Part shown: in pieces, positions 1 through 11,385 of the stretch | Layout of the letters: each line of letters opens with the position of its first letter | How positions within the stretch are numbered: position 1 is the first letter of the stretch | Position numbers and translations under genes: made by a program | The notes under the pieces: model-generated | Seen by the model: the letters and a program-made list of their open reading frames with translations, nothing else | Told to the model about the DNA's origin: nothing | Databases searched by the model: none | DNA from: a virus | DNA: 11,385 bases | Virus genome (UHGV): UHGV-0346646 | Direction: 5' to 3' (one strand)

Positions 1-642
1 CGCTTCCACGGCGTTATTGATTACGCGCTTGCTGAAAGTGGCCCTGTGCTCTGAATAGATCGCCACCATTTCGCGGCTAAGTTCCATTGTGCTGACCGGA
101 CACCATACCCCGCCGCGCCATACGTGAACGATTTCACTTTCAGGATGTACGCAAACGCCATCAAAGCGATCGGCAAGCAGCTGCGCGCGCTCACTGTCCG
201 CCATCTGCGAAAGTTGCGCCTTTTGCTTTACCGGAAGCTCAATGACCAGACCATCAGAAAGATTCTGGCGCTCACGGGCCAGATATTCGCGCCAGTTCTC
301 CACCTTCTGACCGTGCATACCATCAGGGTAAAAATTTGCATCCTGTACGCCTGCCGCCGCCAGCTTCTGGCCAATCGCCTTTATCATTACTGGCGCAAGA
401 TATCCGGCCCTGAATATGCGCACGGATTTTCTGCCTTCCGGCACAATTTGCAGCTTATCCAGTTCTGATAACTGCTGCTCCCCAAGCCACACAGGAGGCT
501 CATTATCTCCGGCCATACGCGCATCATGTTCCTGCCATTGTTTCGCGTGTGCCCAGGCATCACTACCCGCAAAAATAATGACTTCTGTTCCTTTGTGTTT
601 TATGCCGCGTGACTGCTGTTTTACGTTCGGTGCCAGTTTCAT
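1..642 (-). CDS. hypothetical protein, 5-prime part only (gene continues past window start)
   Basis: ATG at 642-640 overlaps the stop of the upstream gene (ATGA). Frame stays open for all 214 codons down to position 1; checked by hand translation (MKLAPNVKQQSRGIKHKGTEVIIFAGSDAWAHAKQW...VWRGGVWCPVSTMELSREMVAIYSEHRATFSKRVINNAVEA). Absent from the ORF track because it has no stop inside the window. Function not recognised. Confidence 0.5.
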   Translation of the reverse strand, partial: MKLAPNVKQQSRGIKHKGTEVIIFAGSDAWAHAKQWQEHDARMAGDNEPPVWLGEQQLSELDKLQIVPEGRKSVRIFRAGYLAPVMIKAIGQKLAAAGVQDANFYPDGMHGQKVENWREYLARERQNLSDGLVIELPVKQKAQLSQMADSERAQLLADRFDGVCVHPESEIVHVWRGGVWCPVSTMELSREMVAIYSEHRATFSKRVINNAVEA

Positions 643-938
643 TTTTTACCCCTGAATCCTTTAATCATGGTTTTCATCTTCTGAATATTGGCGCGTGCTT
701 TCTCCCTGCTGGTGGGCACGTTACGCGGTACGGCCTGCACAAGAGAAAAATCACGGTCGAACTGATAAACAGGCATCACGCAATCATATTCGTAGCCTTC
801 ACGACGGTAGGTTACGCGCCGTTCCTCCACGCCCTTAATCATTACCGTGCCGCCGTACTTATCGCGGTAAATATCACCGCGCATGAATTTAGTGCGAGTT
901 TTGCCACTGGCAGTTAAGCCAGAATATTTAAGTTTCAT
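639..938 (-). CDS. hypothetical protein (99 aa)
   Basis: ATG at 938-936 with GGAGAA upstream; stop overlaps the start of the next minus-strand gene (ATGA at 639-642). Part of a translationally coupled minus-strand operon. No recognisable motif. Confidence 0.5.
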   Translation of the reverse strand: MKLKYSGLTASGKTRTKFMRGDIYRDKYGGTVMIKGVEERRVTYRREGYEYDCVMPVYQFDRDFSLVQAVPRNVPTSREKARANIQKMKTMIKGFRGKK

Positions 939-943
939 TATTT

Positions 944-1177
944 TTATTCTCCGGTGTGGGGCGCTTTATACTGGTCGTGTAATGTCTCTATTTCCTGCAA
1001 CTCATTTATTACAGGCTCAAGAAGCGTTATTAATGCCGTGACAATCCTTGATTTCTGTTTATCACGTTCATTATCTCCAAGCGTTTCAAGACATATGCGC
1101 AATATTTCCAACATATTTTCACTGTGAGAAAGTGCAAGAAATGCGCGGTCTATTGTTTCGTGGTAAATATCACGCAT
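944..1177 (-). CDS. hypothetical protein (77 aa)
   Basis: ATG at 1177-1175 preceded by GGGGA; stop at 944-946 lies 5 nt before the next gene start. Protein-like composition. Confidence 0.5.
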   Translation of the reverse strand: MRDIYHETIDRAFLALSHSENMLEILRICLETLGDNERDKQKSRIVTALITLLEPVINELQEIETLHDQYKAPHTGE

Positions 1178-1178
1178 A

Positions 1179-1613
1179 TTAATCCCCGTCCGTCGTTTTT
1201 CTTAAAATAACCTCTGTCACGAAATCAGCATAATCGGCGGCGATATTCAGTACATCAAGCCCCGTTGATTTATATTCTCTCGTGGAAAGTAAGAAAAAAT
1301 CCGCTCTAATAAGCTCTGGCATTGACGAAAGCGCATCAGCCGCATCATCAGGAACGCCGGAAAATTCCTGTTTCAGGGAATTAAAACGATCATCACGCAT
1401 AACCCCCCCATTTTCACAATCAGCAACAAGAATATTTTTAGCGTCATTCAGCGACCGCGTTGCGATGTATCGGATACATTCCAGGGCGAACTGTGTCCGG
1501 TCTTTCTGTTCTTCTCCCTGCGCAAGCTCTGCCGTGCATTCAATATCAATAAGCGCGTGCATCAGCGTAGTGAGTGCGGCGGCGGCTGCGTCCGGTGTGG
1601 TTTTATTGCACAT
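1179..1613 (-). CDS. hypothetical protein (144 aa from the ATG at 1613; track ORF starts further upstream at 1667)
   Basis: Internal ATG at 1613 is preceded by GGAGGGG at good spacing; the 1667 start has no Shine-Dalgarno. Overlaps the stop of the upstream gene by 11 nt. Function not recognised. Confidence 0.5.
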   Translation of the reverse strand: MCNKTTPDAAAAALTTLMHALIDIECTAELAQGEEQKDRTQFALECIRYIATRSLNDAKNILVADCENGGVMRDDRFNSLKQEFSGVPDDAADALSSMPELIRADFFLLSTREYKSTGLDVLNIAADYADFVTEVILRKTTDGD

Positions 1614-1833
1614 GTACCCCTCCGCATTTTTTTTCGTTAGAAATAAGCGTTCTTCTTTCCTGTTCATCGCTCAGGAATACGCAGACCTCACCGCTAAGGC
1701 GTTTAAGTAAGCCGATGATTGCCCCTGATTCGCTGTCGGTCATCATGCCAGGGTAATCCTCTGCCAGTGCGCAAATAACTTCGATTTGGTGGGCGCGTTC
1801 TGCTGCCTGTTGTAGTGTGATTTCCTGGCTCAT
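1603..1833 (-). CDS. hypothetical protein (76 aa)
   Basis: ATG at 1833-1831 overlaps the stop of the upstream gene (ATGA); GGGGG upstream. Confidence 0.45.
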   Translation of the reverse strand: MSQEITLQQAAERAHQIEVICALAEDYPGMMTDSESGAIIGLLKRLSGEVCVFLSDEQERRTLISNEKKCGGVHVQ

Positions 1834-2030
1834 AAGCCTACCCCCTGACGAATACGGGCAGCAAATACCATCACGCAGCCAGCCGGAGATTGCTGGCGTG
1901 CTTCCTGTTCGCTGGTGGCCTCAATGGTAATCACGCGCGGTTGTGCCGTGCTCAGGGCGATAAAACGCCAGATGTATTTATTCAGGTTGTGCGAGTCCCG
2001 CCCTTGCGGGTGTGTGGTATGATTTAACAT
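1830..2030 (-). CDS. small protein (66 aa), possibly Icd-like; family assignment is tentative
   Basis: ATG at 2030-2028 with GAGG 5-6 nt upstream; first gene of the minus-strand operon, downstream of a strong predicted promoter. It is also the C-terminal 66 codons of the long track ORF 1830..3116, which I consider a read-through artefact. Confidence 0.5.
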   Translation of the reverse strand: MLNHTTHPQGRDSHNLNKYIWRFIALSTAQPRVITIEATSEQEARQQSPAGCVMVFAARIRQGVGL

Positions 2031-2067
2031 AGCTACCTCGATACTTTCGCTATCGTTGGTGGTTAGA

Positions 2068-2100
2068 AGCCCTGCGAGTGGTAACGACACTTGCGGGGCT
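2068..2100. promoter_or_regulatory. 13-bp-arm inverted repeat (AGCCCTGCGAGTG / CACTTGCGGGGCT, 7-nt loop) in the leader of the minus-strand operon
   Basis: Read directly: the arms pair fully if two G-U wobbles are allowed. Sits between the predicted minus-strand promoter and the start at 2030. Confidence 0.4.
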
Positions 2101-2127
2101 TTGCATTTATGCACCTTGATAATCTCA

Positions 2128-2168
2128 AGGTGTAGCCCACTATATGCTTTAGGTGTGGCCCACGTCAA
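2128..2168 (-). promoter_or_regulatory. predicted sigma70 promoter for the minus-strand small-gene operon, overlapped by two direct repeats (AGGTGTAGCCCAC 2128-2140 and AGGTGTGGCCCAC 2151-2163)
   Basis: On the minus strand: -35 TTGACG (2168-2163), 18-bp spacer, -10 TATAGT (2144-2139). The direct repeats overlap the spacer and the start site, as operator sites would. Confidence 0.4.
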
Positions 2169-2170
2169 GG

Positions 2171-2199
2171 GTTTTATTTGTGCTTTTTCTGTGTATACT
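2171..2199 (+). promoter_or_regulatory. possible promoter for the ribbon-helix-helix gene
   Basis: -10 TATACT at 2194-2199; the -35 is weak (GTTTTA region). Divergent from the minus-strand promoter. Confidence 0.3.
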
Positions 2200-2229
2200 G
2201 TCCCCCACCAATCCAACAGAGGAATAGAA

Positions 2230-2409
2230 ATGGCAACGGGTACAACAAACGCAAAATCACAAGCTCTAAAGGCTCGTGTACCACACGAAATAGTAAACGC
2301 CATGGAATCAGTGAAAGAATCAGGCGAAAGCACATCACAATTCATCATTGCGTCAATGCAAGGCGAGATCAAACGCCGCCAGCGCCGCAAGGCCAAAGAG
2401 CAGGAGTAA
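2230..2409 (+). CDS. ribbon-helix-helix (Arc/MetJ/CopG-like) DNA-binding protein, 59 aa
   Basis: ATG at 2230 with AGAGGAA Shine-Dalgarno. Protein MATGTTNAKSQALKARVPHEIVNAMESVKESGESTSQFIIASMQGEIKRRQRRKAKEQE has the strand-helix-helix pattern typical of RHH repressors. Followed by tandem plus-strand terminators. Confidence 0.6.
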   Translation: MATGTTNAKSQALKARVPHEIVNAMESVKESGESTSQFIIASMQGEIKRRQRRKAKEQE

Positions 2410-2466
2410 CCATCACCAGCGCCGTGGTGTGAGTAACTACGGCGCATTGCTATGCAGGACAACACA

Positions 2467-2640
2467 ATGACCGATAAAGAATTGACCAAAACATTATCAC
2501 CGGCACGGAAAAGACGGCGCAGAAAGATAGAGCATGAATCAGAAAGATTCGCGCCATGTGCTTTTGCCCTTGAGCAATTCCTTAAAGAGTACAGGGAAAA
2601 GCGCTCATTGCAGGTATGGCAACGAACTGAACCTGACTGA
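2467..2640 (+). CDS. possible small basic protein (57 aa)
   Basis: ATG at 2467 with a weak AGGA upstream; Lys/Arg-rich (SPARKRRRRK). Lies between the RHH gene and the plus-strand terminators. Weakly supported. Confidence 0.3.
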   Translation: MTDKELTKTLSPARKRRRRKIEHESERFAPCAFALEQFLKEYREKRSLQVWQRTEPD

Positions 2641-2719
2641 TTGCATTGCCCACCAGCCGCAAATGTGGCATTGTTGGCAATGCTCATGCGTTGGGGATAA
2701 CGTGTAGCTTGTGTCGAGG

Positions 2720-2748
2720 GGCCACCGTAGCGGGTGGCCTTTGTTTTG
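2720..2748 (+). terminator. rho-independent terminator
   Basis: Stem GGCCACC / GGTGGCC with loop GTAGCG, followed by TTTGTTTTG. Confidence 0.6.
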
Positions 2749-2843
2749 CCCGTTATTCGGCAATTGTGGCGCTTCTCCACATGGTTGATATAATCCCACT
2801 GCTCAGATTCATTTTTTGCGCAGTAGGTTAATTGTTCACAAAG

Positions 2844-2877
2844 GCGCTCCGGCAACGGGGCGCTTTTTGTTTTTATT
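2844..2877 (+). terminator. rho-independent terminator (second of a tandem pair)
   Basis: Stem GCGCTCCG / CGGGGCGC (one G-U) with loop GCAA, followed by TTTTTGTTTTTATT. Confidence 0.6.
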
Positions 2878-2882
2878 AGTTT

Positions 2883-3116
2883 GTAGAAACCTGACTCAGA
2901 GATAATGCTCATATTCTGATTGCCGTCAGGGGTGTAAGTTAAATTTACTCCCTTTTTATCATCAAACATCTGCAACGCTCTGGCGTTAACAATATTGGTT
3001 TCACTCCCGCCAGTAAGGCCGGAAATAACCGGAATAATTTCGGCAAAATTTTGCAGATTCTGTTTTTCAGGACGAACGAAGCCCCGCCCTTGTTCGGGAG
3101 AATATCCAGTATTCAT
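2883..3116 (-). CDS. BRO-N / antirepressor-like N-terminal domain ORF, probably truncated or degenerate
   Basis: First ~78 codons of track ORF 1830..3116 (…DDKKGVNLTYTPDGNQNMSIISESGFYKLI) resemble the C-terminal half of a BRO-N domain from memory. The similarity ends where the plus-strand terminator at 2844-2877 is encoded; the remaining ~350 codons have Cys/Trp/Arg-rich antisense-like composition. True end unknown. Confidence 0.3.
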
Positions 3117-3168
3117 GGTTAGATCTCTGTATTAGTGGATGGGTGGCGGCTGTGTGCCGCCAGCCTGA

Positions 3169-3357
3169 TTAGTGAACTGCCTCGCAGCTGTCCTTCCATG
3201 CCAGAACTTCGGATAAAGACCAGCCAACGGAACGACCGCCCAGCTTACGCCGTGATGGGAATTGTCCGGCTTTTTCCAGGTGGTACCGACATGAGCGGCT
3301 CAGGCCTGTAAGTTGCTGACATTCTTTTTCACGTATAAAGCGATCTGTGCTTAACAC
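3169..3357 (-). CDS. alpA: AlpA-family (prophage CP4-57-type) transcriptional regulator / excisionase-like HTH protein
   Basis: GTG start at 3357-3355 preceded by GGGGGA. Protein (…QQLTGLSRSCRYHLEKAGQFPSRRKLGGRSVGWSLSEVLAWK) matches the AlpA pattern TG.SR.T.Y…G.FP…KLG.RSVGW..SE…W. Sits next to the integrase, as in P4-like islands. Confidence 0.85.
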   Translation of the reverse strand: MLSTDRFIREKECQQLTGLSRSCRYHLEKAGQFPSRRKLGGRSVGWSLSEVLAWKDSCEAVH

Positions 3358-3640
3358 AATTCCCCCTTTGTTGTTTCTTAAAGAGTCATTGGGTGGATTA
3401 TTGGGTTGGGTTGTGTCGGATTGTGTCAGGGTGTTTGTGGAATGGCAAACACTGGCGGCGGTCGTTTTACAGAAGCAGGGGAAATGAGAATAAAAACTCT
3501 TTTAATTCATTATGATGCAAAGGCATAAAATTTTACTTTTACGCCTTTTTTACATATTTTTAAGAGTGATTCGCCAGTGTATAAAAAAACAGTACACCTA
3601 TAAAAATCAAATGGTTATTACGATGGCTGATTTTTAACCC

Positions 3641-3700
3641 GTTGTTCCATTTTGTTCCTTGTTGTTCGTCGTTGTGTCTCGTTGTTTCACGTTGTCCGCA
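3641..3700. repeat. cluster of short direct repeats (CGTTGTT/CGTTGTC units) between the integrase and alpA
   Basis: Read directly: gttgttccattttgttccttgttgttcgtcgttgtgtctcgttgtttcacgttgtcc. Related TTGTGTC units occur at 3400-3440. Confidence 0.5.
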
Positions 3701-3722
3701 TCCTGAAAAATCGCAAAAAAAA

Positions 3723-4970
3723 TTATATTTCTCTGGCTATTGGCAATGTGGTTACGTTTTCATGTGTTCCCGCCAGTATCCCTAACCGCTCCGTCCACAT
3801 ATCCAGCGCGTCACGTTTCGCATCCAGATAACGGGAATGGTTATAGACTCGTTGCATCCCTGGCATCTGATGACCTGTAAGCTGCTCCACGACGTGAGGA
3901 TCCACGCCTAAATCGTTCAGCATCGTTGTAAAGGTGCGCCGGATGTCATGCAGTGACCAGTGAGGGTGTTTTAGCCTCCTGTGCGCTAATCTGCCGTACT
4001 GCGACACGCTTGTTTCCTGTTTCACTTCCCCCAGCAATAAGCCCGTGTGCCTGTTCTGCTCCACCAGCTGCGTGACGAACGGCAGTATTGCTTCCGGTAT
4101 GGGCCGGAATATTGCCACCTTCGTTTTGCTGTGTTCTTTCGGCACGGTCCAGAGCATTTCGGTAAAATCCCACTCGCTGATCTCCGATAACCTCAGTTCT
4201 ACCGTCCGGCATCCGAAAACAATCAGGAGGCGGATTAGTGCGACGTAGTAAGGGGAAAATATTTTTTTGTCCAGTGCCTGCAATAATTCGCCAAGTTCTT
4301 TGGTGCTTAAGACGCGCTCGCTTATATCCGGTTTTTTCCCAACGTCCGCCACACTCATATCATCAAGAACGTTGCTGATTGCATAGCGCCGCCTCCGGCA
4401 GAACTTAAGCGCCTGTTTGCACGTCTGTAGCAAGAATCCGGCAGTAACAGGCGTTCGCTTTGCCACCTGGTCAAAACAGGCCAGCCAGTGCCGTAGCTCG
4501 CATTTATCCAGCGGCATAGCACCAATGTGCTGTATTACGTGATTATTAAGGCGCTTTTTCAGGGCGGCATAATCCACGCGGTTTTCCTTTGCGTACGACT
4601 CAAGCCAGTAGGTGAGCGCATCGCCAACCGTTACCGGCTTTAACGCTTCCTGTACGGTGTAATTCATTTCATGACGTGGATTTTTCCCCTCTGCCAGCCA
4701 TGCGCGACACTGGGCGGCTTTTTCCCTGGCTGATTTCAGGCTCAGATCAGGATAATTTCCCAGCTTAATGCGTTCCGGTGGTGCCCCCCTTCCCGTTCCG
4801 GCCCTGTAAGTGAAATACCAGGTTAAAAGGCCACTGGTTGAATGCCTGACGCTCAGGTTTCCACCGTCATTAAGAAAGGCTGTTTTTTGGGCGGGTGTGC
4901 CGTTGATTTTCCTCAGCTGTGTATCGCTCAGTTTGTTAAGTGCTCTGCTCATAATTTTGATTCCGGTCAT
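3723..4970 (-). CDS. int: P4-type tyrosine integrase (site-specific recombinase, phage integrase family)
   Basis: Conserved C-terminal catalytic region HDIRRTF…GHQMPGMQRVYNHSRYLD (H-x-x-R and catalytic Tyr context) and an N-terminal arm-binding-type region like P4/CP4-57 integrases. Start is ambiguous: GTG 4973, ATG 4970 or ATG 4952 (MSRALNKLSDTQ…). Confidence 0.9.
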   Translation of the reverse strand: MTGIKIMSRALNKLSDTQLRKINGTPAQKTAFLNDGGNLSVRHSTSGLLTWYFTYRAGTGRGAPPERIKLGNYPDLSLKSAREKAAQCRAWLAEGKNPRHEMNYTVQEALKPVTVGDALTYWLESYAKENRVDYAALKKRLNNHVIQHIGAMPLDKCELRHWLACFDQVAKRTPVTAGFLLQTCKQALKFCRRRRYAISNVLDDMSVADVGKKPDISERVLSTKELGELLQALDKKIFSPYYVALIRLLIVFGCRTVELRLSEISEWDFTEMLWTVPKEHSKTKVAIFRPIPEAILPFVTQLVEQNRHTGLLLGEVKQETSVSQYGRLAHRRLKHPHWSLHDIRRTFTTMLNDLGVDPHVVEQLTGHQMPGMQRVYNHSRYLDAKRDALDMWTERLGILAGTHENVTTLPIAREI

Positions 4971-4972
4971 CA

Positions 4973-5009
4973 CAATTAACTACACCATTAACTACACCGA
5001 TCGTTGCAC
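4973..5009. repeat. direct repeat copy 1 (contains tandem AACTACACC units), immediately upstream of and overlapping the integrase start
   Basis: caattaactacaccattaactacaccgatcgttgcac. A near-identical copy lies 234 bp away at 5207-5242; the flanks share a degenerate ACAACGTG-GAACAA motif. Confidence 0.7.
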
Positions 5010-5206
5010 AAAGGGCTACAACGTGAAACAAGCTGGAACAAGGAAAATCACAAATCTGTTTATAATCAAAAACATAATGAACAACCTGAAACATTATGAA
5101 ACGGCAAAAAACACTAATTGATAAAATATGTCCTTTTATCACTACATCAAGGCAAGCCATTGATTTAATTAAATGATTTGCACTGCAAAAAGTGCTAAAA
5201 ATCGCA

Positions 5207-5242
5207 AATTGACTACACCATTAACTACACCGATCGTTGCAC
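5207..5242. repeat. direct repeat copy 2 of the integrase-upstream repeat
   Basis: aattgactacaccattaactacaccgatcgttgcac; one mismatch against copy 1. Confidence 0.7.
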
Positions 5243-5451
5243 TGTATGAAACAACGTGGAACAAATAGACACAAGAAATATACAGGCGGGTCATCTTTCC
5301 AGGGGGAAGCGCGCCAATTCATGAGGGGCGTTAATGTCGATATGGGGATCCCCATAACGGGGCTACCTGGCTTTTTTCCGGTTAAATGTCAATCAGGCTG
5401 GTGGGTTTTACATACCCTTGATCACCGTAATGATGATCCAGATGTGCGCCT

Positions 5452-5507
5452 TTCCACCAATGGTGGAAAAGCCCACAGCAGGCCGCCCAGCCTCCCCCAA
5501 TGGGGGA
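5452..5507. repeat. pair of related GC-rich palindromes (TTCCACCAATGGTGGAA at 5452-5468; TCCCCCAATGGGGGA at 5493-5507)
   Basis: Read directly; centres 41 bp apart. A third palindrome, ATGGGGATCCCCAT, is at 5342-5355. Candidate protein-binding or recombination core sites in the non-coding junction. Confidence 0.5.
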
Positions 5508-5515
5508 TTGTGGAA

Positions 5516-5684
5516 GAATCAACGGGTTAGGCCTTAATGGGCTGCGTGGTAATTATCAGCATCCAGAATATGACGGGTTATGTTTCCGACCTCTTCAATT
5601 TGAGGTTCCCGAAAATATCAACGGGTTAGGCTGGTTTCCCCGATGTTCGCCGCTGGCGAATTTCGAAAATATCAACCAGTTACC
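5516..5684. repeat. three direct repeats of an ATCAAC(G/C)(G/A)GTTA(G/C)(G/C) unit (5516-5533, 5608-5632, 5662-5684)
   Basis: gaatcaacgggttaggcc; cccgaaaatatcaacgggttaggct; ttcgaaaatatcaaccagttacc. The last copy overlaps the stop of the 93-aa gene. Confidence 0.5.
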
Positions 5685-5961
5685 GCCGCAACCGCTCCGG
5701 CTTCTTCCAGTGGTACGTAATTTTCTCCGTTTCCCGATACAGTGCCACGCGGCGATTGTAGGCCAGCATTTCAAGAACGCGGATCCGTATGTTGCGCATA
5801 TCCACATCATTAAGCTGGATACCATTACGGCGAATCACCTCAGCAACCACACGAACATAATTTTCGGCGGTCACGCTGTCCGGCTGCGTGGTCTGTTCGT
5901 CGGCCTGCTGGCTGATTCCGGCAACGCGGCGGATTAATCGCAGTATTTCGGCTTCTGTCAT
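5680..5961 (-). CDS. hypothetical protein (93 aa), last gene of the packaging-side module
   Basis: ATG at 5961-5959 with GGGGG 5 nt upstream; the track ORF 5680..6159 extends upstream through the cos copy and is not credible there. Protein MTEAEILRLIRRVAGISQQ… has no recognised motif. Confidence 0.5.
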   Translation of the reverse strand: MTEAEILRLIRRVAGISQQADEQTTQPDSVTAENYVRVVAEVIRRNGIQLNDVDMRNIRIRVLEMLAYNRRVALYRETEKITYHWKKPERLRR

Positions 5962-5994
5962 TGTGCCCCCATCGTTCTGATAGTCTGGTGTCGT

Positions 5995-6066
5995 CGGGTC
6001 CTTCCTGGAATTATGGCCCGTTACGGGGCGGCGACCTCGCGCGTTTTCACTATTTATGAAAATTTT
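5995..6066 (+). other. lambda-type cos site, copy 1 (cosN with cohesive-end sequence GGGCGGCGACCT at 6026-6037)
   Basis: gttacgGGGCGGCGACCTcgcgcgttttcactatttatgaaaattttt is near-identical to the lambda genome junction (…GTTACG / GGGCGGCGACCTCGCGGGTTTTCGCTATTTATGAAAATTTTCCGG) as I remember it. Confidence 0.75.
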
Positions 6067-6075
6067 TCGGGATCC

Positions 6076-6172
6076 ATGTCCGGTTTCTCTGCAAGTTAAC
6101 CATATGAAAAATATAAAAACATGCTTTCCATGAACCGGACATGCGCAAAAAACAGACACTAAAACCGGACAT
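6076..6172 (+). promoter_or_regulatory. cosB-like repeats: ATGTCCGGTT (6076-6085, inverted), AT-rich spacer, AACCGGACAT (6134-6143) and AACCGGACAT (6163-6172)
   Basis: One inverted plus two direct 10-bp sites with an A/T-rich stretch between the inverted pair, paralleling lambda cosB (R3 - IHF site I1 - R2 - R1). Lies directly after cosN copy 1. Confidence 0.5.
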
Positions 6173-6240
6173 CGAACCAGTTAACCGAAAGTGTGCACAA
6201 ATCACATGCATTGCTGCGAGTGATTAACAAGTTATCGGCT

Positions 6241-6675
6241 TTACTGTTCTGTATCGGCTGATTGCTCCATGCTGGCACGGCGAACGCTTACGGCATGACG
6301 CCACCCAGCCAGAAAGCCAGCCATTTTATTTCGTGCCTTGCTCACATCTTCCGGTGAATAGCCGTAAATCTGCAAACCTTCATCAAATCGATGTTCTGTT
6401 TCTTCACTGGAGTACTCGTCACGCTCAGATGAAAGCAGCCTGGCAAACATAATTTTTTCCAGCGCACTGGTTTCTACGTGATATCTGATGGCCTCAAGAC
6501 GGCTTTTACCTGAAGACCAAAGCAATGTATGCCCGATGTGATAACCGCCAGACTTTCCGCGATCCGCATTAAGATACGGCATCCCCTGTTTGGTCCATGC
6601 GCGAATAGTGGTTCTGTTAACCTTGAAATGTTCAGCTATTTCCTGCTGACTTACAAAACAAGCTTTATCAATCAT
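6241..6675 (-). CDS. lambda Nu1-like small terminase-type protein (N-terminal winged-HTH DNA-binding domain), 144 aa
   Basis: ATG at 6675. N-terminus VSQQEIAEHFKVNRTTIRAWTKQGMPYLNADRGKSGGYHIGHTLLW aligns by eye with lambda Nu1 KKQLADIFGASIRTIQNWQEQGMPVLRGGGKGNEVLYDSAAVIKW. Shorter than Nu1 (181 aa). Lies about 90 bp downstream (minus strand) of cosN copy 2. Confidence 0.7.
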   Translation of the reverse strand: MIDKACFVSQQEIAEHFKVNRTTIRAWTKQGMPYLNADRGKSGGYHIGHTLLWSSGKSRLEAIRYHVETSALEKIMFARLLSSERDEYSSEETEHRFDEGLQIYGYSPEDVSKARNKMAGFLAGWRHAVSVRRASMEQSADTEQ

Positions 6676-6744
6676 AATGTTACCTTAACTGCATGGTTAA
6701 ATATTAATCAAGTGGTGGTGGTGTCACCTTCACGGAAAAACGTC

Positions 6745-6807
6745 ATAAATAGCGAAAACCCGCGAGGTCGCCGCCCCGTAACGGGCCATAATTCCAGGAA
6801 GGACCCG
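6745..6807 (-). other. lambda-type cos site, copy 2, inverted relative to copy 1 (cohesive-end sequence at 6765-6776 read on the minus strand)
   Basis: Reverse complement reads cgggtccttcctggaattatggcccgttacgGGGCGGCGACCTcgcgggttttcgctatttatg; 47 bp are identical to copy 1 and about 70 bp match with two mismatches. Confidence 0.75.
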
Positions 6808-6808
6808 T

Positions 6809-6830
6809 AAAAAAGCCGGATTTCTCCGGC
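6809..6830 (-). terminator. rho-independent terminator ending the capsid operon
   Basis: Minus-strand hairpin GCCGGA-GAAA-TCCGGC followed by TTTTTT, just after the stop at 6837. Confidence 0.65.
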
Positions 6831-6836
6831 CTTGTC

Positions 6837-7250
6837 TCAGATGGTTTTCAGTATGCGATCGATGTCGCCGTCATCGCCCTGGTTTCTGCCATCGTATGCC
6901 ATGCCAGCTGATACGGCTTGCGGGCTGTGCATGTCCATAAAGTTTTCAAAGGCTGCGGTAAGCTCTGGTGCAACCTTTGGGCGCTCCTGCTCTATGGTCA
7001 TGTTCAGGATTTCACGAGCATTATCGACGCTAATACATGGCACGTTTGCCATTGCACGTAACAGCGGCTGATAGTCTTTATGCTCATGAAGCGCCATAAT
7101 CGCATCAGCGCGCGGCTTGTCCTGCTCTTCCAGTTTGTTTAGTTGATATACGGCCTCATAGGTTGATAAACCTCTGTCAGCCATTGCCCGCGCTTCGGCT
7201 TTAAATTTACTCGCCAGCGGTAGCGTCATGATGCTTTCATTCGTTGCCAT
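6837..7250 (-). CDS. hypothetical protein (137 aa), last gene of the capsid operon; possible scaffold-like or capsid accessory protein (speculative)
   Basis: ATG at 7250 with GGGGG 5 nt upstream; predicted helix-rich and acidic. Function not recognised. Confidence 0.55.
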   Translation of the reverse strand: MATNESIMTLPLASKFKAEARAMADRGLSTYEAVYQLNKLEEQDKPRADAIMALHEHKDYQPLLRAMANVPCISVDNAREILNMTIEQERPKVAPELTAAFENFMDMHSPQAVSAGMAYDGRNQGDDGDIDRILKTI

Positions 7251-7262
7251 CGTTCCCCCTGC

Positions 7263-7598
7263 TTATCGGGCCAGCGGCTGAACGGATACGCCGGAACCCG
7301 CAAAGGCGGCGCATTTTTTCGCATCGGTGTCGACGCTCTCAGGCCAGTTAACGGCGGCAATATTGAATATCCCCGTCTTGTAACACTGTGCTGATTTCTG
7401 CTTTGACGTGTCCACAGGGTACGAGGTCAGATAAACAGCCTTGCCAGATTCCTGACCATCCCACGGCTTAAACTCGCCATTGTCCGCCAGCATCAGCGGG
7501 GTAAATTCCTGAATAACGCCAGCATCAGCGGCAAAATGTACCAGCGTCGTGGCGACCTGCTGACTGCCTGCAAATAACTCAATGTATGGAGTGTCCAT
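7263..7598 (-). CDS. head decoration protein, lambda gpD family
   Basis: TPLMLADNGEFKPWDG…YKTGIFNIAAVNWPES…AKKCAAFAGSGVSV aligns by eye with lambda gpD TPLMLDTSSRKLVAWDG…YKSGTFRYEDVLWPEA…TKKRTAFAGTAISI. Similar length (111 vs 110 aa). GGGGG Shine-Dalgarno. Confidence 0.8.
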   Translation of the reverse strand: MDTPYIELFAGSQQVATTLVHFAADAGVIQEFTPLMLADNGEFKPWDGQESGKAVYLTSYPVDTSKQKSAQCYKTGIFNIAAVNWPESVDTDAKKCAAFAGSGVSVQPLAR

Positions 7599-7609
7599 AG
7601 AATCCCCCG

Positions 7610-8665
7610 TTAACCAATTTTGACGGTAACAAATTTGCGAATATCTGCCGGAACCGGCTGCGGTGCGCTGTGCGTCTGCACGTACTCAATCGCCGGATCG
7701 CCGTCCTCAATCCAGTTTTTCGGGTAAAACATGTTTTGCGTTGCGCCCGTTCTTACTGCGTCCTGATCCATAATCGCACCATAGGCCACCAGCCCTTTAT
7801 TGTTGGTGTTGCCCAGGACAAGCAAATCAGGCTCAAGGAAATATTTTTCTGTGCCGTCGCTGTCAGTGTATTTGCCGGAATAGACGATAAGGGCAATATC
7901 GCCCAGATAGCCTTTAAAGCTCACCACTTCGCCCAGGTTTTTACAGGCCAGCTCTGCGGCGGACTCTGAACCACGGGAAAGATCGTACAGCTCACGGAAT
8001 TTTTTAAAGCTGCGTAACGTTCGCCATACCTCAGCGCCCATAATCATGACGTTTGCGGGGCAACCAGCCTGATCGGCGTATAGTTCGATATCATAGATTG
8101 GATCGTGGGTTTCTTTGTCCTGCTCTGACCATTTTTTCCCGTCGGCCTGCTCTATGATGTTTTTTTCCGGTATCTTCCAGTCGATTTCATAGCGCTCTAT
8201 GCCTTCGCCTTCAATGATGTTTTTTCCGGTCGTTACCGCATTTACCGCCAGCCATTCCACGCGCGCTTTTATGGCGTTTATCTGGCGGCGCATATTGCCA
8301 GTAATCAGGCGCATACGGCGATAGGTAGGGTCGTTAAGCTGTGCCGGATCTTCTCCAGCCATGCGCATGATGGTTTTCGTTGGATCGATTTCGTGCTTTG
8401 GCTTCATGTAGCCAGGTTTAATCGTGCTGGTTTCGTACCCTTTATCGCGCTGAACCTGGCTACCCACCATAGGCGAACAAAACGCCGACATGGTGACTTC
8501 TTCAATGTCCAGGGTATCCAGCATGATGTTTTGCGTGCTGAATGTCGCCACGTTCGGGAAAAACAGCGTGGTAAACAGCGGACTGAATTTAAATTCCGCA
8601 ATATCCCCGCGATTCAGGTACGCAAAAAGCTGGTTAGTGTTAAGTGCCATTGCTTTTACTGTCAT
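7610..8665 (-). CDS. major capsid protein, lambda gpE family
   Basis: 351 aa with FKFSPLFTTLFF, PGYMKPKHE, DPTYRRMR, SFKGYLGDIALIVYSG, YPKNW and GDPAIE motifs matching lambda gpE (FKFDPLFLRLFF, PGYVKPKHE, DPAYRRRR, SYKGMYGDVAIVVYSG, YPKNW, GDPARE) at the same relative positions. Confidence 0.9.
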   Translation of the reverse strand: MTVKAMALNTNQLFAYLNRGDIAEFKFSPLFTTLFFPNVATFSTQNIMLDTLDIEEVTMSAFCSPMVGSQVQRDKGYETSTIKPGYMKPKHEIDPTKTIMRMAGEDPAQLNDPTYRRMRLITGNMRRQINAIKARVEWLAVNAVTTGKNIIEGEGIERYEIDWKIPEKNIIEQADGKKWSEQDKETHDPIYDIELYADQAGCPANVMIMGAEVWRTLRSFKKFRELYDLSRGSESAAELACKNLGEVVSFKGYLGDIALIVYSGKYTDSDGTEKYFLEPDLLVLGNTNNKGLVAYGAIMDQDAVRTGATQNMFYPKNWIEDGDPAIEYVQTHSAPQPVPADIRKFVTVKIG

Positions 8666-8871
8666 TATTCACCCCCGTGAACCTGATTCATACCCAGCGC
8701 CGCGCGTAAATAGGCGCGTACCTGCCAGCCTGTTGACGGCTCAACCATCGCCAGCGGATCAAGTCCTGCCGCAATGCCTGCTTTTACGTTCTGCTGGTGG
8801 CGTTCCTTGAGCGCCTTCACGATGTCGGGGCTTATGTACACCGAAACACCGCCTTTTTTCTCTTCAGCCAT
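8665..8871 (-). CDS. hypothetical protein (68 aa), first gene of the capsid operon
   Basis: ATG at 8871; stop overlaps the capsid gene start by 1 nt (TAATG). Shine-Dalgarno spacing is long (AGAGGA ~12 nt upstream), so the start is uncertain. Confidence 0.45.
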   Translation of the reverse strand: MAEEKKGGVSVYISPDIVKALKERHQQNVKAGIAAGLDPLAMVEPSTGWQVRAYLRAALGMNQVHGGE

Positions 8872-8904
8872 AGTAAGAAATTCCTCTTTGACTTAAAAAA
8901 TCAT

Positions 8905-8953
8905 AACTGGATGTTCATCCAGCTCTGATTATAATCATGATTGCATTTTGTGC
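8905..8953 (-). promoter_or_regulatory. predicted capsid-operon promoter with overlapping palindromes
   Basis: Minus strand: -35 TTGCAC (8953-8948), 16-bp spacer, -10 TATAAT (8931-8926) inside the palindrome GATTATAATC. The perfect inverted repeat CTGGATG-TT-CATCCAG (8905-8920) lies at about +1 to +16. Confidence 0.4.
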
Positions 8954-9036
8954 AATGATGTTGAGTTGCGTTGCAAATTATGAAATGATTATCCCGATCA
9001 TGTGTGTCAGTGCACCAAAAAGCCTCATATGCAAAA

Positions 9037-9073
9037 GCCCGATAAGCCACCTCTGACCTTATCGGGCTTTTTT
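9037..9073. terminator. orphan terminator-like hairpin in the 415-bp intergenic region
   Basis: GCCCGATAAG - 11-nt loop - CTTATCGGGC followed by TTTTTT on the plus strand (AAAA precedes it). No obvious plus-strand gene upstream. Confidence 0.35.
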
Positions 9074-9248
9074 ATCTGCCTGCAAAGATGTCGAACGAAA
9101 ATTAACCACAACCATCATCTTTTTTGCATCAAAACAATTAAAAACAATAAATTACGCTCATGATGATGATGACGATAAAATCACAAAAATGCGCTTTTTT
9201 CCGCGCCTCCCGCCCCGTGTTCAGGCCCACCCCGCCAGGAGGACCCGT

Positions 9249-9271
9249 AAAAAAGCCGGATTGCTCCGGCT
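9249..9271 (-). terminator. rho-independent terminator after the SSB gene
   Basis: Minus-strand hairpin AGCCGGA-GCAA-TCCGGCT followed by TTTTTT. Sequence is near-identical to the terminator module at 6791-6840. Confidence 0.6.
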
Positions 9272-9286
9272 TCTGTCTCTCGTCGC

Positions 9287-9709
9287 TTAAAACGGTATGT
9301 TATCCCCGTACGGATCATCATTCCCCGCCTGTTGTTTTGCCCTGTTCAGCGCGTCAGTAGCCTGGCCCTGTTGACCTTTTTTGCCGCCCAGTCGCGCCGT
9401 TCGCGCACTGATTACACTGTCTGCGATAACCTGCCAGCCCTGCCGCGTTTCTCCGTTCTGCCCAGTCCACTGGCTGATCTGCATGTTACCCGCCACGCTC
9501 AGGAGTTCACCCTTGCGGTGCCTTTCCAGTGCTTCGGCCTGTCTGCCAAATGCCAGGACGGATAACCACATCGTCGCCGTTCCGTCATCTGCCTGGCTGC
9601 ACGGAAGGGGGACCGCCATACGCGCCAGCGTCATCGGTGTGCCCTTGCTGGTCTGTTTTACCTGCGGGTCGTCCACCAGCCGCCCGTAAGCTGCTATCTG
9701 TGCTGTCAT
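9287..9709 (-). CDS. ssb: single-stranded DNA-binding protein (SSB, OB-fold)
   Basis: Aligns by eye with E. coli SSB: G.L..DP.V, W..V..FG..AE, RKG, W.G..G..R. C-terminal acidic tail ends NDDPYGDNIPF (compare SSB …DFDDDIPF). GAGGTGG Shine-Dalgarno. Confidence 0.75.
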   Translation of the reverse strand: MTAQIAAYGRLVDDPQVKQTSKGTPMTLARMAVPLPCSQADDGTATMWLSVLAFGRQAEALERHRKGELLSVAGNMQISQWTGQNGETRQGWQVIADSVISARTARLGGKKGQQGQATDALNRAKQQAGNDDPYGDNIPF

Positions 9710-9765
9710 GATTCCACCTCTCCGGTTTTAACGTTGATGGTTGTTACCTGTTCCGCTTCGGCAAT

Positions 9766-9984
9766 CTACCGCTCTGTCAGCGTGGCAAAATTTGCCGCCG
9801 TCGTGGTCATGAATGCGCTTATCAGTTCGGGATGTGCTTTCGCGTATCCTTCCCCCGCGTGGCGGTCTATCGTTCTGATTGCCACCTTTAAAGCGTGCTC
9901 TGTCATGTCTAACGCGCGATATTTCGGTTCTGTTCTGTCTCTGCGTTTTTTGAGTGATTTATTAAATTTCCCTGAAGTGTGCAT
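9766..9984 (-). CDS. hypothetical small protein (72 aa or shorter from an internal Met)
   Basis: ORF between the origin and ssb; the Shine-Dalgarno is poorly placed, so the start is uncertain. Confidence 0.4.
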   Translation of the reverse strand: MHTSGKFNKSLKKRRDRTEPKYRALDMTEHALKVAIRTIDRHAGEGYAKAHPELISAFMTTTAANFATLTER

Positions 9985-10033
9985 ATTTATTTTTACCCCC
10001 TCGTTTAAAAAGTTTTGAGTTGTGCCTCCCCTT

Positions 10034-10259
10034 GTCTACCTTATCTACCTTAGTGGCCCTCATGCCAGTAATGGCGCGGCTTTCAGCGGGGTAGAGTGCT
10101 TTTATCCACTATCTACCCCGTGTCTACCTCCCTGTCTGATTCAGGTAAAATCAGGTAGAGAGGGTAGATAGTGGGTAGACAGTAAAAAAAGGCTATCTAC
10201 CTAACTTAATGCACTGAATTAAATGTATTTTTCTTTACTCAGGTAGACAGGGTAGACAG
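10034..10259. repeat. iteron cluster, putative replication origin (about 11 copies of GGTAGA(C/G/T)AG in both orientations)
   Basis: TCTACC at 10035, 10044, 10112, 10123 and 10196; GGTAGA at 10089, 10154, 10163, 10174, 10242 and 10251. Immediately downstream of the primase/helicase stop at 10273. Confidence 0.7.
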
Positions 10260-10272
10260 CAATTACAAAAAA

Positions 10273-11385
10273 TTATAAAAACGCGTCGCACTCGTCTGTT
10301 GTTATTGCGTTAGTCTGCGTTACCCCCTTAACTTTCCGCGTAATATATTCATGTCCGTAAACTTTTGCGGCAGGCTTCATAGCCTTTCCAAAGTCATTTA
10401 CGTTTAGCGGTTTGCTCCTGCCTGCGTATGCCATAAACGCCAGATAGACGCGGTAAAGGCTGTTCCTGGTCGTGTACTTCACTGAATCGCCACCGCCCCC
10501 CATCATCAGGCCGCGCGCTTCCTCCAGAAAATTCAGGAACTGGCAAAACTCAATAACCGGATCCGTCTGTTGCTTTATTGCCAGTGCTTCATCACCGTCA
10601 CGCTGTTCCAGTAGTAAAGCCCGTGCCTTCTCAGGGTCGGTAAAGTTCGCCAGCAATCGGCGGATAATGACAGGGATTTCAGCCGCGATCTTTTCCGGTA
10701 GCTCCCTGTCTTTTTCGGCCTCACTGACGATATTGTCGAAACGGAAAATCACGCGACGACGTGCCACACCTCCGGCCCGTTCGGTGAATATCATCGGGTT
10801 ATTGTTGGTCGCCAGCACCACCGCCCTGATTACAGCCGTGAAACGCTTTTCGTATTTCGGGTTAATTTCCACGGGGTCACCGCCCGTGATTTTCTTGATG
10901 CCCGTTCCTTCGCCTGTATATTTCGGCTGGTCAGCCAGGACGATAAGACGACTCCCGACAACCTGCGCACGTCCACCAGCATCATCAAGCGATGTCATTT
11001 CAGCGCTTACCGTGTTCTGTTTCCCTGCCAGAAGGCTGGCTATGTGCGTGAATGTACTTTTACCGCTCCCGCCGTCTCCGGTGGCCTCAATAAACATCTG
11101 CCAGTCGTACCGGTTCGCCATAATCATGTACAGCGCGGCACATATACGCATCATCTTGCGCGGGTCTTTTCCGGCTGCGTGCTCAAGCCATTTATGAAAG
11201 TTTGGCGCGTTATCGCGGATGTTCTCCCCTGGTGCTGGTGGCGTGTACTCAATGCCGTTGTGCGTGGTGATCCAGTTCTCCGGCGTGTGCGGGGAAAATC
11301 CCCCCGTTTTCAGGTCAAGCGCACCATTGGCGAACGGCAGCAAATCGCCGGACGGCTCGCCCATTGGTTCGGCAATAACTTTTAA
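10273..11385 (-). CDS. P4-family phage/plasmid primase C-terminal region with D5_N-like and SF3 helicase (P-loop) domains; 3-prime part only (start lies beyond window end)
   Basis: Walker A GDGGSGKST; upstream D5_N-like LLPFANGALDLKTGGFSPHTPENWIT; Walker B-like LIVLADQ. The frame is open upstream of the first in-window Met to position 11385, so the gene starts outside the window. Confidence 0.85.
   Translation of the reverse strand, partial: LKVIAEPMGEPSGDLLPFANGALDLKTGGFSPHTPENWITTHNGIEYTPPAPGENIRDNAPNFHKWLEHAAGKDPRKMMRICAALYMIMANRYDWQMFIEATGDGGSGKSTFTHIASLLAGKQNTVSAEMTSLDDAGGRAQVVGSRLIVLADQPKYTGEGTGIKKITGGDPVEINPKYEKRFTAVIRAVVLATNNNPMIFTERAGGVARRRVIFRFDNIVSEAEKDRELPEKIAAEIPVIIRRLLANFTDPEKARALLLEQRDGDEALAIKQQTDPVIEFCQFLNFLEEARGLMMGGGGDSVKYTTRNSLYRVYLAFMAYAGRSKPLNVNDFGKAMKPAAKVYGHEYITRKVKGVTQTNAITTDECDAFL

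What the first reader, a model, noticed from the sequence alone, without database searches (positions are those of the whole stretch)
6076..6172. cosB-like site architecture next to cosN copy 1 but not copy 2
Copy 1 is followed by an inverted pair of 10-bp sites (ATGTCCGGTT / AACCGGACAT) separated by an AT-rich 48-bp spacer, plus a third direct copy. This parallels lambda cosB (R3 - IHF site - R2 - R1). Copy 2 has the same cosN but about 70 bp of different sequence before the Nu1-like start and no such sites. The site sequence differs from lambda R sites as I remember them, suggesting an element-specific packaging specificity.
Basis: partly seen in the sequence, partly recalled or inferred. 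Interest (0 to 1): 0.6.

Follow-up and report, generated by a model that had tools for sequence, protein, structure and literature searches.

The report
Phage-type cosB on satellite's second cos
The three repeats are real and sit next to a DNA-packaging cut site of a well-studied E. coli phage satellite, but they are almost certainly the docking sites of a common helper-phage packaging protein, not of the satellite's own protein.

Summary
The window is the complete, circularly permuted 11,385-bp genome of an EcCICFT073-type phage-inducible chromosomal island (PICI). The "Nu1-like" gene is rppA.

There are three exact ATGTCCGGTT/AACCGGACAT sites at +51, +108 and +138 from cosN, close to lambda R3/R2/R1 positions.

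It is a true cosB, but it is neither element-specific nor RppA's site:
- Published cosB-swap experiments place RppA-TerS action at the other cos.
- The cosN-to-third-site block is 97% identical to the cos of Escherichia phage PhiR12_1.
- In about 1,155 of 5,426 complete E. coli genomes, the same block lies directly upstream of a distinct Nu1-family terS.
- Sister islands with an identical RppA DNA-binding domain carry a different cosB at cos2 (GGTTGTTGT sites), which belongs to another terS class.
- Rpp-less islands carry only phage-type cosBs. One group even keeps a 24-codon terS relic.

Best reading: cos2 is a captured helper-type cos that allows Rpp-independent packaging by a second helper class. 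This has not been tested experimentally.

Also found: the segment between the two inverted cos sites occurs in both orientations in nature (83 versus 15 genomes).

The parts
5995..6072 (+). cos2 core (published name): cosQ-like, cosN and I2-like sequence. It is one arm of the 78-nt inverted repeat shared with cos1.
   Evidence: Inverted repeat I1, 91% complementary. Alignment with phage and prophage cos regions. Matches the cos2 sequence in Fig. S1A of PMC6739421.
6026..6037 (+). cosN of cos2 (GGGCGGCGACCT, identical to the lambda cohesive end)
6076..6085 (+). Site A, R3-equivalent (ATGTCCGGTT; 11-mer CATGTCCGGTT from 6075), +51 from cosN
   Evidence: Invariant in 8 of 8 aligned PICI, phage and prophage cos regions.
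6086..6132 (.). 47-nt spacer, 70% A+T, in the position of lambda I1. Its left 42 nt are nearly invariant among relatives. A possible IHF or bend site.
   Evidence: The IHF consensus gives only 2-mismatch hits here. Divergent relatives have a 1-mismatch match, AATCAATTAGTTC (read by eye from the spacer list).
6133..6142 (-). Site B, R2-equivalent, inverted relative to site A (+108 from cosN)
   Evidence: The A-to-B spacing is 47 nt in all 119 oriented IMG/VR occurrences (120 contigs).
6163..6172 (-). Site C, third R site (+138), in the same orientation as site B
   Evidence: Present as A(A/G)CCGGACAT in 107 of 119 IMG/VR occurrences.
6173..6182 (+). Degenerate remnant (CGAACCAGTT) of the fourth half-site, which in phages reads GACCGGTTTT and makes site C a palindrome. 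Homology to phage cos ends here.
6241..6675 (-). rppA (redirecting phage packaging protein A, c1503 of CFT073)
   Evidence: E=5e-31 to RppC (6hlk). Its length (144 aa) and its sequence as far as Fig. S1C is legible (residues 1-50) match the published RppA. Annotated as WP_000565609.1 in CFT073 and HM670.
6676..6729 (-). cosB of cos1 (published name), the region shown experimentally to confer RppA-dependent packaging. The cloned cosB extended into rppA, to about 6596.
   Evidence: Primer sequences and the Fig. 6 text of PMC6739421. R3-PICI proposed at bp 48-65 by PMC9026076.
6730..6807 (-). cos1 core (cosQ-like, cosN at 6765-6776, I2-like); the second arm of the inverted repeat
6073..6729 (.). 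Segment between the two cos cores (cosB2 + rppA + cosB1), which is found in both orientations in nature

Best explanation
The window is an EcCICFT073-type PICI, and the repeats are the R elements of the cosB of its second cos site (published cos2).

This cosB is a copy of the cosB of a widespread class of lambdoid E. coli prophages, typified by Escherichia phage PhiR12_1. The small terminase of that class keeps the Nu1 C-terminal two-thirds but has a different N-terminal DNA-binding domain.

Inferred mechanism, by analogy with lambda:
1. During a lytic cycle of a helper of that class, the helper's own TerS binds sites A, B and C.
2. The AT-rich spacer is bent, by IHF or intrinsically, which brings A and B together.
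3. TerL is thereby positioned on cosN (6026-6037), nicks it, and packages the island concatemer rightwards (+ strand direction).
4. RppA is not needed for this route.

cos1 plus RppA serves lambda/80/21-type helpers (published). cos2 would extend the helper range by direct mimicry. Because the two cos sites are inverted, neither should act as a termination site for packaging started at the other.

Shown: identity and geometry of the sites; their linkage to that terS class; their lack of covariation with RppA; the published RppA results.

Inferred: TerS binding, bending, and real use of cos2 by such helpers.
For: 1. Window 6038-6172 is 97% identical to PhiR12_1 through PhiR12_5. In PhiR12_1 the block sits after the lysis genes and 49 nt upstream of Nu1/A.
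2. Five of five non-PICI E. coli loci sampled across identity bands show lysis genes, then this cosB, then terS and terL.
3. The terS DNA-binding-domain segment is in 1,165 of 5,426 complete genomes. It is contiguous with the cosB in 1,155.
4. In IMG/VR, 106 of 119 A-47-B occurrences are followed by this terS about 145-176 nt downstream of site A (129-176 overall; mostly ~145).
5. Selecting by terS alone, 64 of 75 loci have the exact A-47-B-20-C layout. Most of the remainder are 1-nt variants or indels; one lacks the stretch between sites B and C.
6. Pfam Phage_Nu1 covers only residues 49-150 of this TerS. Its N-terminus is a different domain, whose HTH-like stretch aligns only weakly with RppA (E=0.052).
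7. Homology between the island and phage cos stops at the last R site.
8. The cosB class at cos2 changes (ATGTCCGGTT in 11 islands, GGTTGTTGT in 12) while RppA residues 1-58 stay identical.
9. The GGTTGTTGT class precedes its own Nu1-family terS in 60 of 92 loci.
10. Rpp-less islands carry the two phage-type cosBs.
11. Single-cos islands keep this cosB plus the first 24 codons of the phage terS.
12. Published work: RppA-TerS uses the cosB of cos1 only. Both cos sites are functional, because only the double deletion abolishes transfer.
Against: 1. No binding or packaging experiment exists for this TerS class.
2. With lambda and phage 80 as helpers, deleting cos2 raised transfer, so in the only tested settings cos2 is useless or costly.
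3. The fourth half-site present in phages is degenerate in the island.
4. One island (strain GF4) has a mutated cosN at cos2.
5. The IHF consensus match in the spacer is weak, with 2 mismatches.
6. It is unknown whether PhiR12-class phages induce this island.
7. The phage relatives sampled are close (TerS about 99% identical), so conservation of the sites partly reflects recent common ancestry.
Confidence: 0.6

Rival explanations
1. One reading: the repeats are an element-specific cosB read by the island's own Nu1-like protein (RppA), alone or together with helper TerS.
For: RppA has a Nu1-like winged HTH. The sites lie next to a cosN at R3/R2/R1-like distances. The authors predicted that PICI R elements should differ from lambda's.
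Against: 1. Published cosB swaps and the phage 80 chimera show that RppA-dependent packaging needs the cosB of cos1, the copy without these repeats. RppA raised transfer of cos1 plasmids only.
2. The sites occur in phages and prophages that have their own terS and no rpp.
3. Islands with an identical RppA DNA-binding domain carry a different cosB at cos2.
4. Rpp-less islands retain the sites.
Confidence: 0.05
2. Inert relic: cos2 and its R sites are left over from the recombination that brought phage cos DNA into the island, and are no longer used for anything.
For: Deleting cos2 does not reduce transfer by lambda or phage 80; it raises it. The fourth half-site is degenerate. The GF4 island has a mutated cos2 cosN. 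A 24-codon terS relic in sister islands shows that such captures do leave debris.
Against: 1. Sites A, B and C are exact in 16 of the 17 island-context copies recovered (one has a 1-nt change in the third site), while the sequence between and after them varies.
2. The position holds one of two intact cosB classes, each with a full set of R sites. That pattern suggests replacement rather than decay.
3. Rpp-less and single-cos islands have nothing else to be packaged by.
4. Both cos sites are functional, since only the double deletion abolishes transfer.
Confidence: 0.2
3. Decoy: the sites bind the TerS of PhiR12-class phages mainly to interfere with the phage, by titration or by abortive cutting of cos2, rather than to package the island.
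For: The same linkage of the sites to that terS class. Islands of this family are known to interfere with helper packaging.
Against: Three sites per island copy make a weak sink. The intact cosQ-cosN next to the sites, and the sister islands that rely on this cos alone, argue for productive use.
Confidence: 0.07
4. Transcriptional operator: the inverted and direct repeats bind a regulator controlling the downstream 93-codon ORF (5680-5961, - strand) or read-through from rppA.
For: The sites lie in the 280-nt gap between rppA and that ORF. Inverted repeats are typical of operators.
Against: No sigma-70-like promoter was found in 5962-6240 on either strand. The same sites occur in phages with a different gene context, always at a fixed distance from cosN. 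There is no Rfam match.
Confidence: 0.03

Closest known systems
cos2 of EcCICFT073 (Fillol-Salom et al. 2018, PMC6092414; 2019, PMC6739421)
   Same: It is the same locus. CFT073 is 100% identical over window 6060-6180 and 99.2% over 5950-6850. The sequence printed as "cos2" in Fig. S1A contains the three repeats.
   Different: The papers describe the PICI cosB sequences as completely divergent from lambda, 80 and phi4 and name no R elements in cos2. They leave open why some PICIs have two cos sites. The match to another phage class shown here does not appear in the papers I could search.
Lambda cosB (R3 - I1 - R2 - R1, bound by gpNu1 and IHF)
   Same: Identical cosN. R sites at +51/+108/+138 versus +53/+109/+155. 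The first two sites are inverted relative to each other. The spacer is AT-rich (70% versus 75% A+T). In the phage homologues a Nu1-family terS starts at +196, versus +191 in lambda.
   Different: The R sequence is unrelated (CATGTCCGGTT versus CGTTTCC(G/T)TTCT). The third site is inverted and 17 nt closer, and in phages it is part of a palindrome. In the island no terS follows; the 3' end of rppA, in antisense, follows instead.
cosB of phage 21 and CFT073 prophage phi4
   Same: Lambda-like layout. The R core CATGTCGG resembles CATGTCCGG.
   Different: There is one extra C in every site here, and the spacer sequences differ. From my own knowledge, gp1 of phage 21 has a lambda-like N-terminus, unlike the PhiR12-class TerS; I did not test this.
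cos1/R3-PICI, the Rpp-TerS site (PMC6739421; Murialdo and Feiss 2022, PMC9026076)
   Same: Same island and same cosQ-cosN core. The cosB begins at the same distance from cosN (about +48).
   Different: cos1 has a single proposed R3-like site, no repeats and no I1, and it is followed by rpp at +102. It needs RppA, whereas cos2's cosB does not respond to RppA.
Satellites that carry their helper's own cos (SaPIbov5-type cos SaPIs; the helper-embedded satellite 11capE, which shares 258 bp at 90% with its helper's cos)
   Same: Packaging by plain mimicry of the helper's cos, with no satellite terminase subunit.
   Different: Here the mimic cos coexists, inverted, with an Rpp-dependent cos on the same island.

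Membership tests
Lambda-type cos site (cosQ-cosN-cosB) | 12-nt cohesive-end site cosN with a flanking cosQ-like sequence upstream | tested here: met
   GGGCGGCGACCT is exact at 6026-6037. Upstream, GGGTCCTTCC aligns with phage cosQ GGGTCCTTTCC.
Lambda-type cos site (cosQ-cosN-cosB) | Repeated R elements starting about 50 nt from cosN, with the first two in inverted orientation | tested here: met
   Sites at +51, +108 and +138.
Lambda-type cos site (cosQ-cosN-cosB) | IHF site (I1) between R3 and R2 | tested here: inconclusive
   The spacer is 70% A+T and conserved, but the IHF consensus gives only 2-mismatch hits. Lambda I1 gives a 1-mismatch hit in the same scan.
Lambda-type cos site (cosQ-cosN-cosB) | cosB followed by the cognate terS gene | tested here: not met
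   In the window the next gene is rppA in antisense. The feature is met in the phage and prophage homologues.
Lambda-type cos site (cosQ-cosN-cosB) | Cut and packaged by a terminase | not testable with these tools
   Published: a cos2 plasmid is transferred by lambda and phage 80 at reduced efficiency, and only deleting both cos sites abolishes island transfer.
Lambda packaging specificity (gpNu1 R sites) | R elements match CGTTTCC(G/T)TTCT | tested here: not met
   The R sequence is different.
PhiR12/O157-prophage-class cosB | CATGTCCGGTT - 47 nt - AACCGGACATG - 20 nt - A(A/G)CCGGACAT at +51 from cosN | tested here: met
   97% identity to PhiR12_1 over 135 nt with identical offsets.
PhiR12/O157-prophage-class cosB | Bound by the N-terminal domain of that class's TerS | not testable with these tools
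   There is only genomic linkage: 1,155 genomes, 106 of 119 site-selected IMG/VR loci and 64 of 75 terS-selected loci.
Rpp-dependent PICI cosB | Lies directly upstream of rpp and confers RppA-dependent transfer | tested here: not met
   The repeats lie downstream of rppA on the opposite strand. Published cosB swaps assign the RppA response to the other cos.
Rpp-dependent PICI cosB | Covaries with the Rpp DNA-binding domain | tested here: not met
   Two cosB classes occur at cos2 in islands whose RppA residues 1-58 are identical.
EcCICFT073-type Gram-negative cos PICI | Integrase, primase, rpp and lambda-type cos, about 11 kb, with no terminase gene | tested here: met

The most novel reading that the evidence does not exclude
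E. coli PICIs run two packaging strategies from one invertible cassette. One is an Rpp-dependent cos, which redirects lambda/80/21-type terminases. The other is a second, inverted cos whose cosB is an exchangeable copy of another helper class's cosB. At least two such classes exist, each paired with its own terS DNA-binding domain. This would let an island switch or widen its helper range by swapping about 130 bp.
Probability: 0.4. Interest if true: 0.6.

Novelty: new member of a known kind. Interest (0 to 1): 0.45.

Why it matters
[quoted passage not shown] This comparison gives a concrete, testable answer. The second cos is not odd island DNA but the recognition module of a very common prophage terminase class (about 21% of complete E. 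coli genomes, including O157:H7). Sister islands carry the module of yet another class at the same position.

If confirmed, helper range could be read from the cosB sequence. It would also define two further lambda-like packaging specificities, as R-site and TerS-domain pairs. Finally, it bears on the design of PICI- or cosmid-based delivery vehicles.

Tried and rejected
- RppA as the binder of the sites. Rejected on the published cosB swaps and on the lack of covariation.
- A match to the natural helper phi4 of CFT073. Its cosB is phage-21-like (CATGTCGG), not this one.
- Operator or promoter role. No promoter-like site was found in the gap.
- Structured RNA. No Rfam hit up to E=1.
- IHF prediction. 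Only weak consensus hits.
- Genome-collection scan with the PhiR12 TerS. It returned only 4 loci, most matching only the C-terminal part, so it was not informative.
- Class-2 cosB against the phage collection. No match; its phage context came from IMG/VR instead.
- Literature search for the PhiR12 phages, and for any discussion of cos2 beyond the two Penades-lab papers. Nothing found.
- PDB search with the PhiR12 TerS. No meaningful hit. I could not submit that protein for structure prediction under the tool's input rule.
- Co-residence of the island with PhiR12-class prophages. This could not be counted reliably from the capped hit tables.

Full report
**What the window is**

The ORFs encode an integrase (3723-4973, - strand), a D5-type primase, SSB, a lambda E-like major capsid protein, a D-like decoration protein, and a 144-aa protein with a Nu1-like HTH.

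Region 5950-6850 is 99.2% identical to E. coli CFT073 1387483-1388384. That is the island next to phoQ known as EcCICFT073. It is 100% identical to strain HM670 and others.

Mapping the window onto HM670 shows a circular permutation of the whole 11,385-bp island. Window 5124-11385 and 1-4465 are contiguous in the chromosome in the opposite order. The primase gene runs across the window ends and the att junction lies at about 5124-5133.

The 144-aa protein is RppA. It matches the RppC crystal structure 6hlk at E=5e-31. It also matches the published RppA in length (144 aa), in sequence as far as Fig. S1C is legible (residues 1-50), and at the named contact residues R21, T22, T23, R25, W27 and K29.

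**The observation**

The three 10-mers are exact, at 6076-6085 (ATGTCCGGTT) and at 6133-6142 and 6163-6172 (AACCGGACAT). The spacer is 47 nt, not 48.

cosN occurs at 6026-6037 (+) and 6765-6776 (-). The two cos cores form a 78-nt inverted repeat (5995-6072 and 6730-6807, 91%).

Measured from cosN, the sites start at +51, +108 and +138. Lambda R3, R2 and R1 start at +53, +109 and +155.

**Which cos is which**

Fig. S1A of Fillol-Salom et al. 2019 prints both sequences.

Published results for the two sites:
- cos1 is required for transfer by lambda and phage 80. Deleting cos2 raises transfer. Only the double deletion abolishes transfer.
- RppA raises transfer of a cos1 plasmid.
- In cosB swaps, only constructs carrying the cosB of cos1 respond to RppA.
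- A phage 80 chimera carrying the cos1 cosB becomes RppA-dependent.

Murialdo and Feiss 2022 place the proposed Rpp site (R3-PICI) at bp 48-65 of cos1. [quoted passage not shown]

**What the repeats are**

A search of the phage collection with 6038-6240 found five phages, PhiR12_1, _2, _2_star, _4 and _5. Each matches window 6038-6172 at 97%.

In PhiR12_1 the block lies after the lysis genes. It has cosN and sites at exactly +51, +108 and +138. A gene annotated as terminase subunit Nu1 starts at +196 and gene A follows.

Five of five non-island E. coli chromosomal loci, taken across identity bands, have the same context.

In the alignment of island, phage and prophage copies, the R cores and most of the spacer are invariant. 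Positions before site B and between sites B and C vary. Similarity between island and phage ends just after the third site.

In phages the third site is part of a palindrome, AACCGGACATGACCGGTT. The island keeps only a degenerate right half (6173-6182).

**The terS linked to the sites**

The 170-codon terS product matches Pfam Phage_Nu1 only over residues 49-150 (profile positions 62-163). It is about 46% identical to lambda Nu1 over residues 73-164. Its N-terminal 48 residues are different.

That N-terminus contains an HTH-like stretch that aligns only weakly with the RppA HTH (E=0.052).

Linkage between this terS and the sites:
- The segment encoding that domain occurs in 1,165 of 5,426 complete E. 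coli genomes. In 1,155 of them it is contiguous with the cosB.
- In IMG/VR, the pattern ATGTCCGGTT-N(40-56)-AACCGGACAT was always spaced by 47 nt. In 106 of 119 occurrences this terS follows about 145-176 nt downstream of site A (129-176 overall; mostly ~145).
- Selecting loci by terS alone, 64 of 75 have the exact A-47-B-20-C layout. The others differ mostly by single bases or small indels; one lacks the stretch between sites B and C.

This is linkage, not binding. The relatives are also close, so part of the conservation reflects common ancestry.

**Tests against the RppA model from sister islands**

Among 25 IMG/VR loci encoding RppA relatives, 11 have the ATGTCCGGTT cosB at cos2. Twelve have a different one: GGTTGTTGT, 50 nt, ACAACAACC, then GGTTGTTGT. 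That is a lambda-like >, <, > layout.

Islands of the two kinds have identical RppA residues 1-58. The nearest pairs differ only at A140V/D141V, next to the swapped segment.

The GGTTGTTGT sites in turn precede a third Nu1-family terS (MAFLLNKSDMASSIGISVQAFDKWGVPP...) in 60 of 92 IMG/VR loci.

A group of islands without rppA carries one cos of each class, again inverted.

Another group has a single cos with the ATGTCCGGTT class, followed by the first 24 codons of the PhiR12-type terS and then the homologue of the 93-codon ORF. That relic shows where the module came from.

**Mechanism**

I conclude that cos2 is a captured helper-type cos. By analogy with lambda (established knowledge of gpNu1, R sites and IHF):
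1. The helper's TerS would bind sites A, B and C.
2. The spacer would bend.
3. TerL would nick cosN and package rightwards.

RppA would play no part in this route.

The inverted arrangement should keep each cos from acting as a terminator for packaging started at the other, because termination in lambda depends on the orientation of cosQ-cosN (my knowledge, not tested here).

Weak points:
- No experiment exists with this helper class.
- cos2 is dispensable or costly with lambda and phage 80.
- The fourth half-site is degenerate.
- One island has a mutated cos2 cosN.
- The IHF consensus match is weak.

The main rival is that cos2 is an inert relic. I give that 0.2, because the three sites are exact in 16 of the 17 island copies recovered (one has a 1-nt change in the third site) and the position holds alternative intact modules rather than decayed ones.

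**Other checks**

No sigma-70-like promoter lies in the rppA-ORF93 gap. There is no Rfam match. The cosB of the CFT073 helper prophage phi4 is phage-21-like (CATGTCGG cores), not this class.

**An unplanned finding**

The segment between the two cos cores occurs in both orientations. I built the junction expected after inversion: window 5860-6037 joined to the reverse complement of 6560-6764. It is present at 100% over all 383 nt in the 12 genomes listed, and 15 complete E. coli genomes in all have at least 80% of it in one piece. By comparison, 83 genomes are collinear with the window.

In strain WP4-S17-ESBL-08, rppA is annotated on the strand opposite to the flanking island genes. The Rpp-less islands also show both isomers.

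Each cosB stays attached to a cos core after inversion. What changes is the direction of rppA relative to the upstream operon and the direction of packaging relative to the backbone.

**Novelty and score**

The locus and its two cos sites are published. The R elements of cos2, their identity with a common prophage cosB, the second exchangeable class and the inversion are not in the papers I could search. The 2019 paper lists the two cos sites as an open question.

In kind this is a lambda-architecture cosB of another specificity, carried by a satellite by mimicry. I therefore rate it a new member of a known kind, with interest 0.45.

Noticed in passing
window 6073-6729 (between the inverted cos cores 5995-6072 and 6730-6807): The segment carrying cosB2, rppA and cosB1 is found in both orientations in nature. 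Fifteen complete E. coli genomes hold the predicted inverted junction (100% over 383 nt in the 12 listed), versus 83 collinear with the window. In strain WP4-S17-ESBL-08 (L353), rppA is on the strand opposite to its neighbours. Whether RecA or terminase cutting and re-annealing causes the flip is unknown.
   Followed up: yes
L144-L157 (IMG/VR islands with RppA), the position equivalent to window 6038-6240: About half of the RppA islands carry a different cosB at cos2: GGTTGTTGT, 50 nt, ACAACAACC, then GGTTGTTGT. Their RppA DNA-binding domain is identical. The same sites precede a third Nu1-family terS (MAFLLNKSDMASS...) in 60 of 92 IMG/VR loci.
   Followed up: yes
L009, L012, L019, L027, L038, L052, L055, L102: These are islands without rppA that keep two inverted cos sites, one with each phage-type cosB class. 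Only a 72-nt inverted scrap of the rppA 3' end lies between them.
   Followed up: partly
L023, L031, L042, L068: These are single-cos islands. The ATGTCCGGTT-class cosB is followed by the first 24 codons of the PhiR12-type terS and then a homologue of the 93-codon ORF. Their cosN is GGGCGGGAGCGG, a different cohesive end.
   Followed up: partly
window 1-642 plus 10273-11385, and about 5124-5133: The window is the whole island in circular permutation. The primase gene runs across the window ends, and the att junction lies near 5124-5133, directly after the phoQ stop codon in the integrated form.
   Followed up: yes
window 1830-3116, - strand: This is a 428-codon open frame. Only its last 80 or so codons match a known family (a PHROG family annotated as a transcriptional repressor (the co-located RefSeq gene is called Icd-like)). 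RefSeq annotates small genes on both strands across the same stretch instead.
   Followed up: no
window 6837-8665, - strand: The island encodes a lambda E-like major capsid protein, a D-like decoration protein, and a 137-aa protein resembling the C-terminal (scaffold-like) end of head maturation proteases. Yet the 2018 paper describes the island as lacking capsid morphogenesis genes and as packaged in full-size capsids. Four island copies (45.5 kb) would fill a lambda head.
   Followed up: no
window 6676-6729, - strand (cosB of cos1): The segment proposed as R3-PICI (bp 48-65 from cosN, AGGTGACACCACCACCAC) begins exactly where the inverted repeat shared with cos2 ends (bp 47). Two weak sigma-70-like promoter matches for rppA lie inside this cosB (6727-6700 and 6700-6671).
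   Followed up: no
L009 1431-1520 (strain GF4 island): The cos2 cosN is mutated (GGGCGTGGAACC) while all three R sites are intact. The neighbouring 93-codon ORF is frameshifted, so this looks like a decaying island.
   Followed up: no
window 6075-6085 versus phi4/phage 21 cosB (supplement of PMC6092414): The R core here (CATGTCCGG) differs from the phage-21-type core (CATGTCGG) by one extra C, although the two terS N-termini look unrelated. This may be coincidence or distant common origin.
   Followed up: no
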